DNA of 64,000 nucleotides, taken from positions 1-64,000 of IMG/VR virus record IMGVR_UViG_3300042396_000723; one strand, given 5' to 3'. The DNA is from a virus. Shown in pieces: positions 16,558-20,941 of this stretch (its first letter is position 1; every line of letters begins with the position of its first letter). The notes beneath the pieces were generated by a model. It was not told the origin of the DNA, ran no database searches, and saw nothing but the letters and a program-made list of their open reading frames with translations. A program made the position numbers and the translations under genes.

Positions 16558-17268
16558 ATGGCTGATAAATGTTTGGTAATTTTAAGCGGCGGTCAAGATA
16601 GTACGACTTGCTTGGCGATCGCAAAAAGTAAATTCAAAGAAGTTCACGCAGTAACTTTTAATTATGGTCAACGGCATTTAACCGAAATTGAGAGCGCGAT
16701 CAAAATAGCTGAAAAGTTAAACTTAGCTTCCCATGAAATTATCGATCTAGGTCAGGGGATTTTAAAAGGTAGCTCCCCACTGGTCAGCAACAACGAATTG
16801 GGAGTTTATAAGAATGTTGATGAATTACCTGGCGGGGTAGAACCAACTTTTGTTTATAGCAGGAATATTTTATTTTTAACTATTGCATCTAATCGCGCCG
16901 CCGTTATGGGTATTAATGATATCTTTATCGGTGTCTGTGAAGCTGATTATGCGGGTTATTTTGATTGCAGACTAGATTTTATCAATGTCATGTCGAAAGC
17001 GTTAGGAGAGGGTGTTTATGGTTCGCCCGATGCTTTTAAAATTCATACTCCGTTAATGAGCTTAACTAAAGCCGAATCGGTATTATTAGCTAAGGATTTA
17101 TTGGGTGATGATTTTGATTCAGTGATGGAATTAACCCATACTTGTTATGCGGGTGTTAAGGGCGGATGTGGTAAATGTCACGCTTGTTTGATTCGTGACA
17201 GAGGTTTTCAAGAGGCGGGAATAGTTGACCCAATATGGAAGTTTAGAAATGTATCTGTATTTAGTTGA
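16558..17268 (+). CDS. queC: 7-cyano-7-deazaguanine (preQ0) synthase QueC
   Basis: PP-loop SGGQDS and C-terminal zinc motif CYAGVKGGCGKCHAC; internal ATG preferred over track start 16549. Confidence 0.85.
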   Translation: MADKCLVILSGGQDSTTCLAIAKSKFKEVHAVTFNYGQRHLTEIESAIKIAEKLNLASHEIIDLGQGILKGSSPLVSNNELGVYKNVDELPGGVEPTFVYSRNILFLTIASNRAAVMGINDIFIGVCEADYAGYFDCRLDFINVMSKALGEGVYGSPDAFKIHTPLMSLTKAESVLLAKDLLGDDFDSVMELTHTCYAGVKGGCGKCHACLIRDRGFQEAGIVDPIWKFRNVSVFS

Positions 17269-18361
17269 TCACTCATCCGAACGCGGACAACGCAAAGTTC
17301 TTACTGAGGAGAGATATATAAGCTATTTGCAATCCTACGCATTCGTTGGACAAGCGGGTTTTATTGACACTCAAAAATATTGGGAGGAGTTATTGAGGAT
17401 TCATTTAGCTGATACAACAGCAAAACTAAATGGTGACGTTAACATAAAAGAAGTTTTAGTTGATGAAAACAAACCAGAACATCTGTTTAGTTATGCCTAC
17501 CAAAACCACGAATCTCAATGGTCTGATTCTTGGAATCAGACCATTGAGAAAAACAAGAATATGAATATACATTTAGCGGGTCATTCTGTTAACGTTGACA
17601 TGGACAAAGTGGTGAAGCCTTTACATGAAAACCATTTAACAACATTTGCAGACCAGAAAGAAGTTAAAGATACTTTGTCCATTTTGGACAAAGTATCTGA
17701 CTTAAGACCTAGAGTAATAATTGACTCAGGAGCATTTACAGCTTTTACAACTGGGAAAATAATTAATCCTAAAGATTATGCTACATGGTCTTTAGACTTT
17801 CAGAAGCGATGGGAGCATAAAATGAAATCTCTAAGTTTTATGAACCTGGACGTTATTGGTAATCAAGATGATAGCTGGAAAAATCAATCAATACTTGAAT
17901 CGTTAGGAATGAAACCGATTCCTATTATTACTTTTGGATGTGATAAAAAGCATTTAATTAGAGCATTAGATAACTATGATTATATAGCTTTAGGCGGTTT
18001 AGTTCCCCATAGTAGGAATAAAATCAAACTTCAAAAATGGTTAGATTATTGTTTCAACATAATCATGGGAAGATATAAAGAAACGGGTGTTATGTCAAGG
18101 ATTCATTTACTCGGTATAACAACTGATTGGGTACTGAAAAGATATCCCTGCTATAGTTCAGATTCGTCATCATGGGTTGCTTGTTTAAGGTTTGGCGGCG
18201 GTGCTGCTGCGGGTTTAGATAAAATACCCAGATATAAAGAATCAGATGCCGCGTTATCAGCAACAATTCACACTTTACGATCAGAGGTAGTAAAATATAA
18301 AAAGATGGAAACTGAAGCAACAAATTTATGGAAATCAAGGGGAATAATCTGGGATGACTAA
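17249..18361 (+). CDS. dpdA: DpdA-like DNA-guanine transglycosylase (TGT superfamily)
   Basis: VIIDSGAFT (cf. TGT DSGGFQ), YIALGGL and RIHLLGIT motifs; sits directly after preQ0 genes; ATG at 17249 preferred over TTG 17225. Confidence 0.65.
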   Translation: MYLYLVDHSSERGQRKVLTEERYISYLQSYAFVGQAGFIDTQKYWEELLRIHLADTTAKLNGDVNIKEVLVDENKPEHLFSYAYQNHESQWSDSWNQTIEKNKNMNIHLAGHSVNVDMDKVVKPLHENHLTTFADQKEVKDTLSILDKVSDLRPRVIIDSGAFTAFTTGKIINPKDYATWSLDFQKRWEHKMKSLSFMNLDVIGNQDDSWKNQSILESLGMKPIPIITFGCDKKHLIRALDNYDYIALGGLVPHSRNKIKLQKWLDYCFNIIMGRYKETGVMSRIHLLGITTDWVLKRYPCYSSDSSSWVACLRFGGGAAAGLDKIPRYKESDAALSATIHTLRSEVVKYKKMETEATNLWKSRGIIWDD

Positions 18362-19028
18362 TTATAAAGTTGAGCGTGGGGTTTTGGTTGATAGTATTGA
18401 TATTGAACCTAACCCGTGGAACCCCAACAAAACATCTGAACGTCAGCAAGAGGCGATCACAGAATCATTAAATGCCTACGGTCAAATCATAGAATTACTG
18501 GTTAGACCGCATCCAGAAAAAAAGGGTAAATATCAAGTTATTGACGGGGAACATCGTTTAATCTCATTGAGCAACAAAGAGCAAAAAATCTTTGTTAATA
18601 TTATTTACGACTTACCCGATGTCGAAGCAAAGAAATTAACCATTATCCTCAATGAAACCAGGGGTGATGCTGATAAAATCGAACTTGCTAAACTATTGGA
18701 AGATATAAATAATGATTTAGGGATTGAAACGATCATAGGGTTGCCATACAGTTCTAATGAATTGGATGAGTTAATAAAATTAGCTGATATTGATTGGGAT
18801 AATTTTGCTAAGGGTGATGATGGTGACGAATTTGATGAAAATGATCCTACGACTGAATCATCGGAATGGATTACTGTAGTTGTTAAAATCCCTTCTGATG
18901 CGATGGAGAGAATACAAGATGTGTACAACATCGTAAAAGATGAAAGGGGTACTTTACACAAAGATAAAGCGATTGCATGGGGACAGGTTTTGGAGTCTAT
19001 GTCTGCTGATTACTTAGCTGGAAAATAG
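18354..19028 (+). CDS. ParB/Srx-fold (ParB-like nuclease domain) protein
   Basis: IDIEPNPWNPNK...QVIDGEHRL resembles the ParB/sulfiredoxin DGxHR core; overlaps the dpdA stop by 8 nt. Confidence 0.55.
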   Translation: MTNYKVERGVLVDSIDIEPNPWNPNKTSERQQEAITESLNAYGQIIELLVRPHPEKKGKYQVIDGEHRLISLSNKEQKIFVNIIYDLPDVEAKKLTIILNETRGDADKIELAKLLEDINNDLGIETIIGLPYSSNELDELIKLADIDWDNFAKGDDGDEFDENDPTTESSEWITVVVKIPSDAMERIQDVYNIVKDERGTLHKDKAIAWGQVLESMSADYLAGK

Positions 19029-19105
19029 GAATAATTGAACCTAAATTAATCGGGAGATTGCCAGACTAATTAATATTAATTGTGGTACAATAGTTAATAG
19101 AAATC

Positions 19106-19141
19106 GCCCTTCGCGGTACGTCAAATACCCAAGGGCTGTAA
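19106..19141 (+). promoter_or_regulatory. conserved 5' leader stem-loop motif, copy 2
   Basis: GCCCTTCGCGGTACGTCAAATACCCAAGGGCTGTAAACC about 25 nt upstream of the 19162 start; shares CGCGGTRCGT...ACCCARGGG...TAAACC with copy 1. Confidence 0.35.
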
Positions 19142-19161
19142 ACCTAACTAACAGGATCACA

Positions 19162-19431
19162 ATGAATAACTTTAACAAAGAACTGGCTTTAAGTTTACTC
19201 GGATCTGGTAAAGAATACCCCGTTGATTTTGAAGACGCTTGGCAATGGTTGGGATATTCGAGTAAACAGGCTGCCAAAAAGAAGCTAACCCGCAACTTTG
19301 AACAAGAGGAAGACTATTTATCCGAATGGATGAAAACCCCAGATGGCGGTCGTCCTAGCGAATCCATCTATCTCACCGTCGATTGTTTCAAGGCATTAGG
19401 GATTGATTGTTTTAATGTGTTATACTATTAA
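19162..19431 (+). CDS. antirepressor N-terminal (AntA-like) fragment, candidate exon 1
   Basis: 89 aa; VDFEDAWQWLGYS...SIYLTVDCFKALGI resembles the start of phage antirepressor N-domains and stops where the homing-endonuclease gene begins. Confidence 0.4.
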   Translation: MNNFNKELALSLLGSGKEYPVDFEDAWQWLGYSSKQAAKKKLTRNFEQEEDYLSEWMKTPDGGRPSESIYLTVDCFKALGIDCFNVLYY

Positions 19432-20165
19432 AACAATCACACAACACTTTAACAATAAATGAACATCGAAATATCTTCTGTTACGCCCCATCTAATTGAA
19501 GATTTAGCTAAGACAGGAATTTATTCTATTACACAAAAGAGTACGGGAAGAAAATATATAGGGAGTACATCGGAAAATTTTTACCAAAGATGGAGGCGAC
19601 ATTTAAGCGAACTAAAAAAAGGTAATCACCATAGCCAGTTTTTGCAACGAACCTGGGATAAATATGGCTCCGATGATTTTGTATTTGAGATTATTGAATT
19701 TCACGACGTACTATCTGTTTTAGATAATTTATCTTTATTGAATTTAGAACAGTCTTATTTGGATAAATTAACTCCAGAGTTCAATATTTCACCTTCTGCA
19801 CATAGTAGAAAAGGGGTGAAAGTATCGGAAGAAACCCGCACTAGAATCAAAGAAGCAAGAAAATATCAAGTAATGAAACCCGTTAAAGAAGAAACAAAGA
19901 AAAGAATTTCAGAATCAAATAAAGGAAAACATGAGGCAAGTATTGAAACTAGAAGAAAAATGGCTGAAGCAAAAAGAGGATTACCACTTAGGGCTATAAA
20001 TACTTATGTCTTAACATCTCCACTTGGTGTTGATATCACGGTAAATAACCTAAAAGATTTTTGTCGAGAAAATAATCTGAATTATCAAAACCTTTTTCAT
20101 GTTATAAGAGGGAATAGAAAATCTTCTCAGGGATGGAAAATAGTCAAGATAAATCCCTAGAGATG
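19412..20165 (+). mobile_element. candidate HEG-containing intervening sequence (possible group I intron) in antirepressor gene
   Basis: GIY-YIG ORF lies exactly between the two antirepressor halves; boundaries are inferred from the protein break, not from intron structure. Confidence 0.3.
19459..20160 (+). CDS. GIY-YIG homing endonuclease with NUMOD3-like repeats
   Basis: GIYSIT...KYIGST, RWRRHL, and repeated S-E-x-T/N-K-G-K motifs (VSEETRTRIKEARK / ISESNKGKHEASIETRRKMAEAKRG). Confidence 0.85.
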   Translation: MNIEISSVTPHLIEDLAKTGIYSITQKSTGRKYIGSTSENFYQRWRRHLSELKKGNHHSQFLQRTWDKYGSDDFVFEIIEFHDVLSVLDNLSLLNLEQSYLDKLTPEFNISPSAHSRKGVKVSEETRTRIKEARKYQVMKPVKEETKKRISESNKGKHEASIETRRKMAEAKRGLPLRAINTYVLTSPLGVDITVNNLKDFCRENNLNYQNLFHVIRGNRKSSQGWKIVKINP

Positions 20166-20687
20166 TCAGGGACGGAGCAAGGGAAGAAAACCCGACAATA
20201 TTTCCTGCGGTGCGAGAAGGAGTTGAAAAACACTCATGGAATTAATTTACTAGACAAGCCTTCACCTCAACTGATTAGTGATGCGGTTATGGCAGTTTTC
20301 CGACCCACCAATGTTGACCCAACACTTATCTCAGGGGTCATTGCCAACAACATCGCTAAAACTTATCCGGCGCTAGCTCCTGCGATGGAAGAATCCAAAA
20401 AACATCTGACCGTCGAAGTCGAGGGAAAACTTCTCACGCCCACCGAACTCGGATTAATCTTAGAACAGCGCACTGGTGTTAAACACAGTGGCAGACGAGT
20501 TAATCAATTGTTAGCCGAGAATGGATTGCAAACTCCTAACCCCGCGGGGAAAGATCCGGCTTGGGTTCCAACTCCAGAGGGGAGTGCTTTTTCTAAACTG
20601 TTACTTGCAGCGCAGAAGGGCGTTAAGGATGCGACTAGACAACATTTGCAGTGGTTTGAATCTGTTGTAGATGTTTTGGCGGTTTAG
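20163..20687 (+). CDS. antirepressor C-terminal part (KilAC-like), candidate exon 2
   Basis: EQGKKTRQYFLRCEKEL resembles the conserved R-x-YFI-x-E segment ending antirepressor N-domains; LTPTELGLILEQRTGVKHSGRRVNQLLAENGLQ is KilAC-like. Confidence 0.4.
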   Translation: MSGTEQGKKTRQYFLRCEKELKNTHGINLLDKPSPQLISDAVMAVFRPTNVDPTLISGVIANNIAKTYPALAPAMEESKKHLTVEVEGKLLTPTELGLILEQRTGVKHSGRRVNQLLAENGLQTPNPAGKDPAWVPTPEGSAFSKLLLAAQKGVKDATRQHLQWFESVVDVLAV

Positions 20688-20704
20688 AAGGTTGAAATAG
20701 CAAA

Positions 20705-20735
20705 AACCCCAGGGGTTGAGTCCTGGGGTTTTTAA
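20705..20735 (+). terminator. intrinsic terminator
   Basis: ACCCCAGG/CCTGGGGT 8-bp stem followed by TTTTT. Confidence 0.75.
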
Positions 20736-20941
20736 GGGTTATGGCGTGGTCTAACAGTATCCTTTCTCTCTCAAGTCTTGGATTTCATGAAATCCCCAGA
20801 ATTGCTTAACAGGGATAAAACCATCTTTTGTTATTACCCGCACTTTTTTCTCGGTTTCAATAACCTCGACAACAACATTTCCAAAAAACTCAAATCCAAC
20901 CTTGATCCAGTTTGCGTTCATTTTTTGCTCCGTATAATTCG

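What the first reader, a model, noticed from the sequence alone, without database searches (positions are those of the whole stretch)
19162..20687. GIY-YIG homing endonuclease splitting an antirepressor gene: candidate group I intron
ORF 19162-19431 ends ...SIYLTVDCFKALGI and ORF 20163-20687 begins ...SGTEQGKKTRQYFLRCEKEL; together these resemble one continuous conserved segment of phage antirepressor N-domains, followed by a KilAC-like C-terminus. A GIY-YIG/NUMOD3 endonuclease ORF sits exactly between them. This is the typical layout of a HEG-carrying self-splicing intron; the alternative is a free-standing HEG that has split the gene in two.
Basis: partly seen in the sequence, partly recalled or inferred. 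Interest (0 to 1): 0.75.

Follow-up and report, generated by a model that had tools for sequence, protein, structure and literature searches.

The report
Homing endonuclease gene splitting a phage antirepressor
A selfish I-TevI-like endonuclease gene, with no intron around it, has inserted precisely into the most conserved part of a cyanophage antirepressor gene and cut it into two reading frames; this is an ordinary kind of mobile element, though well documented here.

Summary
A 233-aa GIY-YIG/NUMOD3 ORF (19459-20160) lies between two ORFs that form one 255-aa "anti-repressor" in more than 30 related protein clusters. A near-identical empty-site allele (L032) fixes the insertion at window 19404-20161: 758 bp, inside codon Met81, with no duplication or deletion.

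It is not a group I intron. No intron family matches in Rfam, even at E<=10, here or in four relatives. Only 55 nt lie before the ORF and 1 nt after it. The inserted DNA ends in A, not G. Synonymous change is even along the ORF. In related lineages the same cassette sits at the same site while the downstream half of the gene is deleted or decayed.

The cassette is a free-standing, I-TevI-like homing endonuclease gene. Six lineages (64-93% aa identity, dN/dS 0.06-0.19) all follow "...DCFKxxG(M)". The identical cassette occurs on two different exon-2 backgrounds, which points to recent spread.

This is a new member of a known kind (Aeh1 nrdA/mobE, T4 39/60/mobA). Whether the two fragments still work is untested; decay elsewhere suggests the gene is dispensable. 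Interest is modest.

The parts
19083..19091 (+). TGGTACAAT, an extended -10-like motif 70 nt upstream of the antirepressor start; candidate promoter of the host gene (inferred)
   Evidence: Pattern match. The motif is common in the window (178 matches; 152 expected), so this is only a lead.
19162..19403 (+). Native 5' part of the antirepressor gene: codons 1-80 plus the first two bases (AT) of codon Met81
   Evidence: Collinear with the empty-site allele L032 1-1452 at 98.3% identity, ending exactly at 19403. Protein alignment.
19162..19431 (+). N-fragment ORF as it now reads: 80 native residues plus 9 foreign ones (IDCFNVLYY), stop TAA at 19429-19431
19404..20161 (+). The inserted cassette (758 bp): 55-nt leader, endonuclease ORF, 1 nt
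   Evidence: The alignment with L032 breaks at 19403|20162 and with L001-L004. The segment shared with the differently placed copy L005 is 19399-20156. There are 0 differences from L027-L029 across the cassette.
19381..19428 (+). Imperfect tandem repeat, period 24. Exon copy GATTGTTTCAAGGCATTAGGGATT (19381-19404), leader copy GATTGTTTTAATGTGTTATACTAT (19405-19428). The leader copy re-encodes DCFKALG as DCFNVLY.
   Evidence: 15/24 identical; 0.3% of equally spaced 24-mer pairs in the region do as well. The same feature occurs in five other lineages at 10-14/24.
19404..19439 (+). 14-bp hairpin that starts at the first inserted base; its loop is TGTTATAC
   Evidence: Fold (z = -2.0). L005 keeps it with one compensatory T-A to C-G change. 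L010 has a different 9-bp hairpin. It is absent or weak in L013, L018 and L022, so it is not a conserved requirement.
19418..19426 (+). TGTTATACT, an extended -10-like motif 32 nt before the endonuclease ATG; candidate promoter of the cassette (inferred)
   Evidence: TGnTAnnnT sits at the equivalent place in all six lineages (TGTTATACT, TGTTATGCT, TGCTACAAT, TGCTAATAT). The chance rate is about 1 per 700 nt per strand.
19459..20160 (+). GIY-YIG / NUMOD3 homing endonuclease ORF, 233 aa, I-TevI-like
   Evidence: dN/dS is 0.06-0.19 against five relatives. R44, E97 and N109 are invariant in the family; I read them as the equivalents of I-TevI R27, E75 and N90.
20163..20687 (+). C-fragment ORF (174 aa). 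It starts at the native Met82 codon, 2 nt after the endonuclease stop (TAG AG ATG).
   Evidence: Collinear with L032 1453-2024 at 99.1% from 20162..
20702..20733 (.). Terminator-like hairpin AAAAACCCCAGG-GGTTGAGT-CCTGGGGTTTTT after the gene
   Evidence: Read from the sequence. Weak terminator-type matches appear.

Best explanation
A free-standing homing endonuclease gene of the I-TevI (GIY-YIG) type has inserted by homing into the antirepressor gene of a PaV-LD-like freshwater cyanophage. The cassette is a 55-nt leader plus a 233-aa ORF, with no intron and no intein. It sits inside codon Met81, in the most conserved stretch of the gene (DCFKxxGMMxGTEQGK).

Shown:
- The insertion is exact and is polymorphic among near-identical phages.
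- The same endonuclease family occupies this site in six lineages.
- The identical cassette sits on different exon-2 backgrounds.

Inferred:
- The enzyme cuts empty alleles near this site, and repair from a cassette-bearing genome copies it in. By analogy with I-TevI the cut would be about 23-27 bp upstream in exon 1.
- The cassette is transcribed from its own extended -10 promoter in the leader.
- The leader's degenerate copy of the target may serve as an operator, as in I-TevI.

The transcript is not repaired. The gene is expressed, if at all, as an 89-aa N-fragment and a 174-aa C-fragment, the latter started by re-initiation at the native Met82 codon 2 nt after the endonuclease stop. The break lies inside the folded N-terminal domain, and the downstream half is lost in older lineages. 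I therefore think the insertion cripples a dispensable gene rather than creating a maintained two-piece protein.
For: Exact 758-bp insertion relative to the empty-site allele L032, whose flanks are 98.3% and 99.1% identical.

Rfam finds no intron family at gathering score in the 64 kb, at E<=10 in 19000-20800 or 19370-20200, or at E<=5 in L005, L010, L011 and L013.

The ORF fills all but 56 nt of the insert. Between-lineage synonymous difference is flat along the ORF (0.29-0.53) and is 0.5 in the last 60 codons.

The homologues P0085-P0091 (64-93% identity) all lie directly after an antirepressor N-fragment ending ...DCFKxxG(M). Behind them the gene's fate differs:
- In L013, about 370 nt are not alignable with the intact allele L023 from the same metagenome project.
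- In L005 the rest of the gene is absent.
- In L018 it is decayed.
- In L011 and L012 it is intact, with GTG overlapping the endonuclease stop.

The cassette has 0 differences from L027-L029, while exon 2 differs from nt 20166 onward (32-39 differences in 526 nt).

The catalytic domain matches I-TevI at 5.8e-9.

The AF2 model of the intact protein (pLDDT 83) puts the break in helix 73-83, ahead of helix 86-103 of the N domain; the linker is at 104-115. The natural module boundary is near residue 114.

Precedents for endonuclease-split phage genes, the I-TevI operator and exon-I-biased co-conversion are in PMC2988022.
Against: There are no RNA or protein data, so absence of splicing is inferred from sequence alone.

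Both halves are intact ORFs in the window, in L027-L030 and in L011/L012, and the C-half start abuts or overlaps the endonuclease stop. That also fits a maintained two-piece protein.

The window-type insertion is so recent (0 differences in 758 nt over five contigs) that lack of decay says nothing either way.

The promoter, operator and cleavage geometry are inferred from motifs that are individually common. TGnTAnnnT occurs about once per 700 nt. CGTCG at -27..-23 is present in A-type alleles but not in B-type alleles.
Confidence: 0.85

Rival explanations
1. Functional 'gene in pieces'. The endonuclease gene is free-standing as above, but the 89-aa and 174-aa fragments reassemble into a working antirepressor that selection maintains, as with split NrdA of phage Aeh1.
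For: Both halves are open in the window, in L027-L030 and in L011/L012. The C-half starts at the native Met82 codon, 2 nt after the endonuclease stop here and overlapping it (TAGTG) in L011. A remnant ATGATG overlaps the TGA stop in L005 and L013, an arrangement suited to translational coupling. Split nrdA and split gene 43 are active (PMC2988022).
Against: The break is inside a folded domain, in the codon of an invariant Met, not at the natural module boundary near residue 114. The downstream half is deleted or decayed in four of six cassette lineages. L010 carries a frameshift relative to L011/L012. The PaV-LD orthologue has an in-frame TGA. The intact halves here are explained by the insertion being very recent.
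Confidence: 0.3
2. Group I intron whose catalytic core overlaps the endonuclease ORF and which splices the two halves together at the RNA level.
For: The insertion is precise, follows a U (19403/19404), and lies in a highly conserved coding site, as mobile introns do. A G-ending in-frame alternative exists (19405-20162). The exon-1 end UUAGGGAU can pair with AUCCCUAG at the 3' end of the insert (seen).
Against: No Rfam intron match at E<=10. Only 55 + 1 nt lie outside the ORF. The exact insert ends in A, and the G-ending alternative would turn invariant Met81 into Ile. Synonymous sites are not constrained anywhere in the ORF. The 3' ends of the cassettes differ between lineages, and the ORF runs into the exon for its stop codon. 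The leader hairpin is not conserved. The host gene is destroyed behind the same cassette elsewhere.
Confidence: 0.03
3. Assembly artefact or chimeric contig that places an unrelated endonuclease gene inside the antirepressor gene.
For: The window appears to be a metagenome-derived contig, judging from matches to JGI and IMG/VR records.
Against: The same junctions, base for base, occur in four further IMG/VR contigs from different samples (L027-L030). Related cassettes occupy the same site in contigs from JGI, ENA and Logan assemblies.
Confidence: 0.01

Closest known systems
mobE inside nrdA of Aeromonas phage Aeh1; mobA between T4 genes 39 and 60 (endonuclease-split phage genes; PMC2988022)
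   Same: A free-standing homing endonuclease gene is inserted into a functionally critical, conserved part of a gene that is contiguous in related phages, leaving two separate ORFs. No intron or intein is present. Regulatory hairpins and stop/start proximity occur around the endonuclease gene.
   Different: Those endonucleases are HNH enzymes in essential genes, and the pieces are shown or presumed to reassemble. Here the enzyme is GIY-YIG, the host gene is an accessory antirepressor, and related lineages show the downstream piece being lost.
I-TevI of the phage T4 td group I intron
   Same: The GIY-YIG catalytic domain matches (5.8e-9). NUMOD3 and a C-terminal DNA-binding region are present. 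A sequence resembling the homing site overlaps the putative promoter just upstream of the ORF; the I-TevI operator is 15/20 identical to its homing site (PMC2988022). The mosaic in L027-L029 fits exon-I-biased co-conversion.
   Different: I-TevI sits in a loop of a self-splicing intron, so td stays functional. Here there is no ribozyme and the host ORF is broken.
T4 Seg proteins (free-standing GIY-YIG endonucleases, intron-less homing)
   Same: A free-standing GIY-YIG gene inherited with flanking markers. One lineage here (L005-L009) is effectively intergenic.
   Different: Seg genes lie between genes and cut a neighbouring gene at some distance. This family is inserted at a fixed position inside its target's coding sequence.
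Fractured genes with split inteins and an intervening endonuclease gene (Dassa et al. 2009, PMC2677866)
   Same: A gene is split into two ORFs with a free-standing endonuclease gene between them, in environmental phage-like DNA.
   Different: No intein halves are present. The N-fragment gains only 9 foreign residues, the C-fragment starts at native Met82, and no intein domain is found by Pfam.

Membership tests
Group I intron | Conserved catalytic core (P3-P9) recognisable by covariance models | tested here: not met
   No intron family in Rfam 15 at gathering score or at E<=10 in 19000-20800 and 19370-20200. None at E<=5 in four related loci.
Group I intron | Excision after a U and after a terminal G that restores the host reading frame | tested here: not met
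   The exact insert is 19404-20161 and ends in A. The only G-ending in-frame option (19405-20162) would change invariant Met81 to Ile.
Group I intron | About 200 nt or more of structured RNA outside the ORF, or visible RNA constraint inside it | tested here: not met
   55 nt lie 5' and 1 nt lies 3' of the ORF. Synonymous difference is 0.29-0.53 along the ORF and 0.5 at its 3' end. The leader hairpin is present in only 3 of 6 lineages.
Group I intron | Host gene remains intact wherever the element is present | tested here: not met
   The downstream half is not alignable for about 370 nt in L013, absent in L005, and decayed in L018 and L022.
Group I intron | Self-splicing of the transcript | not testable with these tools
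   Needs RT-PCR, RNA-seq or in vitro splicing.
Free-standing GIY-YIG homing endonuclease gene | GIY-YIG catalytic domain with conserved catalytic residues, under purifying selection | tested here: met
   Pfam GIY-YIG 2.9e-10. I-TevI 1MK0 5.8e-9. R44, E97 and N109 are invariant. dN/dS 0.06-0.19.
Free-standing GIY-YIG homing endonuclease gene | Not embedded in an intron or intein | tested here: met
   See the group I rows. The insert is 758 nt (not a multiple of 3). Three in-frame stops separate it from the upstream ORF. There are no intein domains.
Free-standing GIY-YIG homing endonuclease gene | Presence/absence polymorphism at one precise site among closely related genomes | tested here: met
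   L032 is the empty site, with flanks 98.3% and 99.1% identical. L001-L004 and L023-L025 are also empty. L023-25 and the cassette-bearing L013-17 come from the same metagenome project.
Free-standing GIY-YIG homing endonuclease gene | The same element on different flanking backgrounds (horizontal spread, co-conversion) | tested here: met
   The cassette is identical in the window and in L027-L029, while exon 2 switches to the B-type sequence 5 nt after the junction. This is consistent with homing but does not prove it.
Free-standing GIY-YIG homing endonuclease gene | Site-specific cleavage of the empty allele | not testable with these tools
   Needs purified enzyme and an L032-type substrate.
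Endonuclease-split 'genes in pieces' that retain function (Aeh1 nrdA type) | Gene contiguous in relatives, split here into two open ORFs by the endonuclease gene | tested here: met
Endonuclease-split 'genes in pieces' that retain function (Aeh1 nrdA type) | The fragments reassemble into an active protein and are maintained by selection | tested here: inconclusive
   Reassembly cannot be tested directly. Indirect signs point against maintenance: the break is inside a folded domain, the C-half is lost in four of six lineages, and the window-type insertion is too recent to judge.
Intein / split-intein fractured gene | In-frame insertion carrying intein splicing blocks on the two host fragments | tested here: not met
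   The insert length is not a multiple of 3, there are stops at 19429, 19450 and 19456, only 9 foreign residues sit on the N-fragment and none on the C-fragment, and there is no intein Pfam hit.
Phage antirepressor (Ant/AntA-type) as host gene | Significant match to Ant profiles | tested here: met
   The intact homologue P0001 matches PHROG Ant families at 6e-11 to 1e-4 over residues 23-220. Pfam AntA is only sub-threshold (0.008-0.015). KilAC is not detected. Antirepressor activity itself is an annotation, not tested.

The most novel reading that the evidence does not exclude
The transcript, or the protein, is repaired after all by something that is not a recognisable group I intron. One example would be a core-less or trans-assisted splicing reaction that uses the 8-bp pairing between the exon-1 end (UUAGGGAU, 19396-19403) and the 3' end of the insert (AUCCCUAG, 20153-20160). 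The antirepressor would then remain whole in cassette-bearing phages.

A milder novel reading is that the leader's decayed copy of the target is an operator through which this free-standing endonuclease represses its own promoter, as I-TevI does. I would give that about 0.25.
Probability: 0.03. Interest if true: 0.85.

Novelty: new member of a known kind. Interest (0 to 1): 0.3.

Why it matters
The finding removes a false intron candidate. It also gives a clean natural example of how a homing endonuclease gene behaves without a splicing element to hide in. It targets the most conserved codons of an accessory gene, spreads between alleles, and the broken host gene then decays until the endonuclease gene stands alone between genes. 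All of these stages are visible in related contigs.

For annotation, the 89-aa and 184-aa "hypothetical proteins" of PaV-LD-like Planktothrix phages should be read as two halves of one antirepressor. "Group I intron endonuclease" labels on this family should not be taken as evidence of an intron. The enzyme's long, well-defined target could make it useful as a site-specific nuclease.

Tried and rejected
- **Rfam:** searched at gathering score over the whole window and at E<=10 on two nested sub-regions, plus four related loci. Only chance-level hits to unrelated families.
- **Leader hairpin as a conserved RNA element:** strong in the window and L005, with one compensatory pair. L010 has a different hairpin. 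L013, L018 and L022 have none (z-scores +0.2 to +0.9). Rejected as a requirement.
- **Leader as a decayed copy of the whole target, exon 1 end plus exon 2 start:** suggested by RRVTQYF in L010/L018. The DNA-level semi-global test was significant only where the exon-1 repeat dominates (window 14/2000, L022 60/2000, L013 103/2000) and not for L011, L018 or L005. Kept only as a lead.
- **Target-site duplication or deletion:** none.
- **Other copies of the endonuclease gene, the halves or the leader in the 64 kb:** none.
- **Intein, ribosomal bypass or read-through fusion:** rejected because of frame and stops.
- **PDB fold search with the AF2 model of the intact protein:** nothing below E = 0.1.
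- **Exact-sequence look-up of the annotated 184-aa C-fragment P0018:** not on record.
- **Literature:** no description of this element found for PaV-LD-like phages.
- **CNNNG at I-TevI distance:** present in A-type alleles (CGTCG, -27..-23) but not in B-type alleles (TGTCG). Not used as evidence.

Full report
**What is there.** Between 19162 and 20687 the + strand carries three ORFs.
- An 89-aa ORF (19162-19431) ends ...YLTVDCFKALG-IDCFNVLYY*.
- A 233-aa ORF (19459-20160) has a GIY-YIG domain (Pfam 2.9e-10) and a NUMOD3 motif. It matches PHROG homing-endonuclease families at 3e-28. Its N-terminal 60 residues align with the I-TevI catalytic domain (1MK0, 5.8e-9).
- A 174-aa ORF runs from ATG 20163 (MSGTEQGKKTRQYF...) to 20687.

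A search with the joined outer ORFs found 84 relatives. More than 30 clusters of 253-280 aa read straight through the junction as ...DCFKALGMMSGTEQGKK..., and the closest are 95-98% identical. PHROG antirepressor profiles match residues 45-105 of the intact protein, across the break, and match neither half alone. The exception is the 'KilAC-like' C-terminus, which Pfam does not support. Residues 114-255 are a separate module shared at 73% identity with Bro-N proteins of Planktothrix. The window resembles Planktothrix phage PaV-LD.

**Exact boundaries.** Contig L032 carries the uninterrupted gene in an almost identical genome. L032 1-1452 equals window 17952-19403 (98.3%), and L032 1453-2024 equals window 20162-20733 (99.1%). 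Four further intact alleles give the same break. The insert is therefore 19404-20161, 758 bp, with no target duplication and no loss of host bases. It lies between the second and third base of codon Met81 (AT|G). Met81 is invariant and Met82 nearly so in 33 homologues.

**Is it an intron?** Five tests say no.
1. Rfam 15 finds nothing at gathering score in the whole 64 kb. It finds no intron family at E<=10 in 19000-20800 or in 19370-20200. It finds none at E<=5 in four related loci.
2. The ORF fills the insert apart from 55 nt before it and 1 nt after it.
3. The insert ends in A. The only G-ending, in-frame alternative (19405-20162) would replace the invariant Met81.
4. If a ribozyme were written into the ORF, synonymous sites would be constrained there. 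Across six lineages the synonymous difference per 20-codon window is 0.29-0.53, and it is 0.5 over the last 60 codons. The protein itself is under purifying selection, with dN/dS of 0.06-0.19.
5. The 3' ends of related cassettes differ, and in several the ORF borrows exon bases for its stop codon.

The insert is also not an intein. Its length is not a multiple of three, and three in-frame stops separate it from the upstream ORF.

**Relatives of the endonuclease.** Seven close homologues (64-93% identity) were traced to their contigs. Every one lies directly after an antirepressor N-fragment that ends ...(L/I)(T/S)(V/I)(D/E)(C/A)(F/L)Kxx G(M). What lies behind them differs.

| Lineage | Identity to the window endonuclease | State of the downstream gene half |
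|---|---|---|
| L013-L017 | 88% | Cassette plus about 50 nt stands where about 370 nt of the gene are no longer alignable with L023, an intact allele from the same metagenome project |
| L005-L009 | 93% | Only a 50-aa remnant precedes the cassette; a terminator and a convergent gene follow it |
| L018-L021 | 70% | Short decayed remnant |
| L022 | 64% | No recognisable C-half |
| L011, L012 | 70% | A diverged antirepressor keeps a full C-half whose GTG start overlaps the endonuclease stop (TAGTG); L010 differs by an A7/A8 frameshift |

The segment shared between the window and the differently placed L005 copy is window 19399-20156 only. This confirms that the mobile unit is leader plus ORF.

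**Evidence of recent spread.** IMG/VR holds one contig identical to the window (L030). It also holds three (L027-L029) in which 19207-20165 is identical to the window, including all 758 bp of the cassette. In those three, exon 2 differs from base 20166 onward, with 32-39 differences in 526 nt. The first 30 nt of their exon 2 are the 'B-type' sequence seen in L023 (MAGTEKGRETRQYF), whereas their exon 1 is 'A-type' like the window. The same cassette on two backgrounds, with the switch within 5 nt of its 3' edge, is what homing would leave. The one-sidedness matches the exon-I-biased co-conversion described for I-TevI (PMC2988022). A pre-existing mosaic allele cannot be excluded.

**Anatomy of the leader.** Three features stand out in the first 55 nt of the insert.
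- It begins with an imperfect tandem copy (period 24) of the preceding exon. The two copies, GATTGTTTCAAGGCATTAGGGATT and GATTGTTTTAATGTGTTATACTAT, are 15/24 identical. Only 0.3% of equally spaced pairs nearby do as well. The other lineages score 10-14/24, re-encoding DCFKxLG as DCFNVLYY, DCFNMLCY, DYFKMLQ, DCFKMLY and DCANILK in varying frames.
- Inside this copy every lineage has TGnTAnnnT, 32-45 nt before the ATG. This is a plausible extended -10 promoter, but the motif is frequent.
- In the window a 14-bp hairpin (19404-19439) encloses it. The hairpin is kept in L005 with a compensatory change, replaced in L010, and absent in three lineages.

A target-like sequence over the endonuclease's own promoter recalls the I-TevI operator, which is 15/20 identical to its homing site (PMC2988022). 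That parallel is an inference only.

**Consequence for the host protein.** An AlphaFold model of the intact protein (33-sequence alignment, pLDDT 83) shows an N-terminal domain of residues 1-103, a disordered linker at 104-115, and a C-terminal part. The break at 81|82 falls at the end of helix 73-83 and removes helix 86-103 from its domain. It is about 30 residues before the natural module boundary. The C-fragment can start at native Met82, 2 nt after the endonuclease stop, so re-initiation is plausible (inferred).

Whether the pieces reassemble is unknown. Three things make me favour 'crippled, dispensable gene' over 'maintained gene in pieces', at roughly 2:1:
- the C-half is lost in four of six lineages;
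- L010 has a frameshift;
- the PaV-LD orthologue has an in-frame TGA.

**Comparison and novelty.** The arrangement works like the endonuclease-split genes of T4-type phages, namely mobE in Aeh1 nrdA and mobA in T4 39/60 (PMC2988022). The enzyme is an I-TevI relative. It is not a fractured gene with split inteins (PMC2677866). I found no description of this element in the searchable literature. It is a new member of a known kind. Its value lies in correcting the annotation and in showing, within one family, the stages from in-gene insertion to a stand-alone intergenic endonuclease gene.

**Limits.** All statements about transcription, translation, cleavage and absence of splicing are inferred from sequence. 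The decisive experiments are listed separately.

Noticed in passing
L033 1049-1718 (also L034, L035; proteins P0071, P0082, P0084): This looks like a second, unrelated cassette in the same antirepressor gene, about 25 codons upstream of the GIY-YIG site. The N-terminus (to ...EGEDFS) runs in frame into a diverged duplicate of the next ~30 codons (IESVTVSHEGKTTASRTEIIKISVECFNKL versus TKWMSVPHSNGLTASRTETIFLTVDCFKSL). About 110 aa follow with a GRIDLL...VVEIKD motif, which looks PD-(D/E)XK-like by eye but has no Pfam hit. After its stop the native sequence resumes at ...MSVPHSNGLTASRTETI. The contigs end there.
   Followed up: partly
L026 3128-3922 (PaV-LD NC_016564 72166-72960, ORF099R + ORF100R): The PaV-LD 'hypothetical protein' ORF099R and 'anti-repressor' ORF100R are one antirepressor gene interrupted by an in-frame TGA (...FSQI*QKVQTGRPTDKI...). 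It is a nonsense mutation, a sequencing error or a read-through site.
   Followed up: partly
L010 2941-3000, L018 390-449: In these lineages the N-fragment ORF reads on in frame through the leader (GM-TILKCYNSCNRRVTQYFAAK*, GM-TVLKCYTNCSHRVTQFFATE*). 'RRVTQYF' resembles exon-2 'KKTRQYF', and the tblastn match of the intact protein runs to residue 95. The leader may be a decayed copy of the whole target region. The DNA-level test was not significant.
   Followed up: partly
window 19396-19403, 20131-20136, 20153-20160, 20168-20172: The motif AGGGA(U) occurs at the exon-1 end, near the 3' end of the endonuclease ORF and at the start of exon 2. AUCCCU(AG) at the 3' end of the insert can pair with any of them. 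The local fold pairs 20125-20134 with 20153-20163. One alternative would enclose the Met82 start codon in a loop. The pairing is not conserved in other lineages, and its significance is unknown.
   Followed up: partly
window 17225-18361 and 18354-19028: The two genes upstream overlap by 8 nt. One is a 378-aa ORF with no Pfam hit; by eye its HLLG and SSDSSSW motifs recall tRNA-guanine transglycosylase/DpdA-type enzymes. The other is a ParB_N-like protein (1.5e-5). At the same place L002 has a 378-aa protein with weak PAPS-reductase/DUF3440 hits before its ParB-like gene.
   Followed up: no
L022 2390-2440: Just upstream of the cassette there is a short tandem duplication in the exon (gaaatatttttaactatagagag / atatttttaactatagactgt), giving IFLTIERYF* and then IFLTIDCLKSIG in different frames.
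   Followed up: no
L018 1695-2168: Two genes downstream of the cassette lies a 157-aa BstA_C-domain protein. Its N-part aligns weakly (26-29% identity) with residues 71-193 of the antirepressor, and its start matches the L011 C-fragment at 51% over 37 residues. It is a second Ant-like gene nearby.
   Followed up: no
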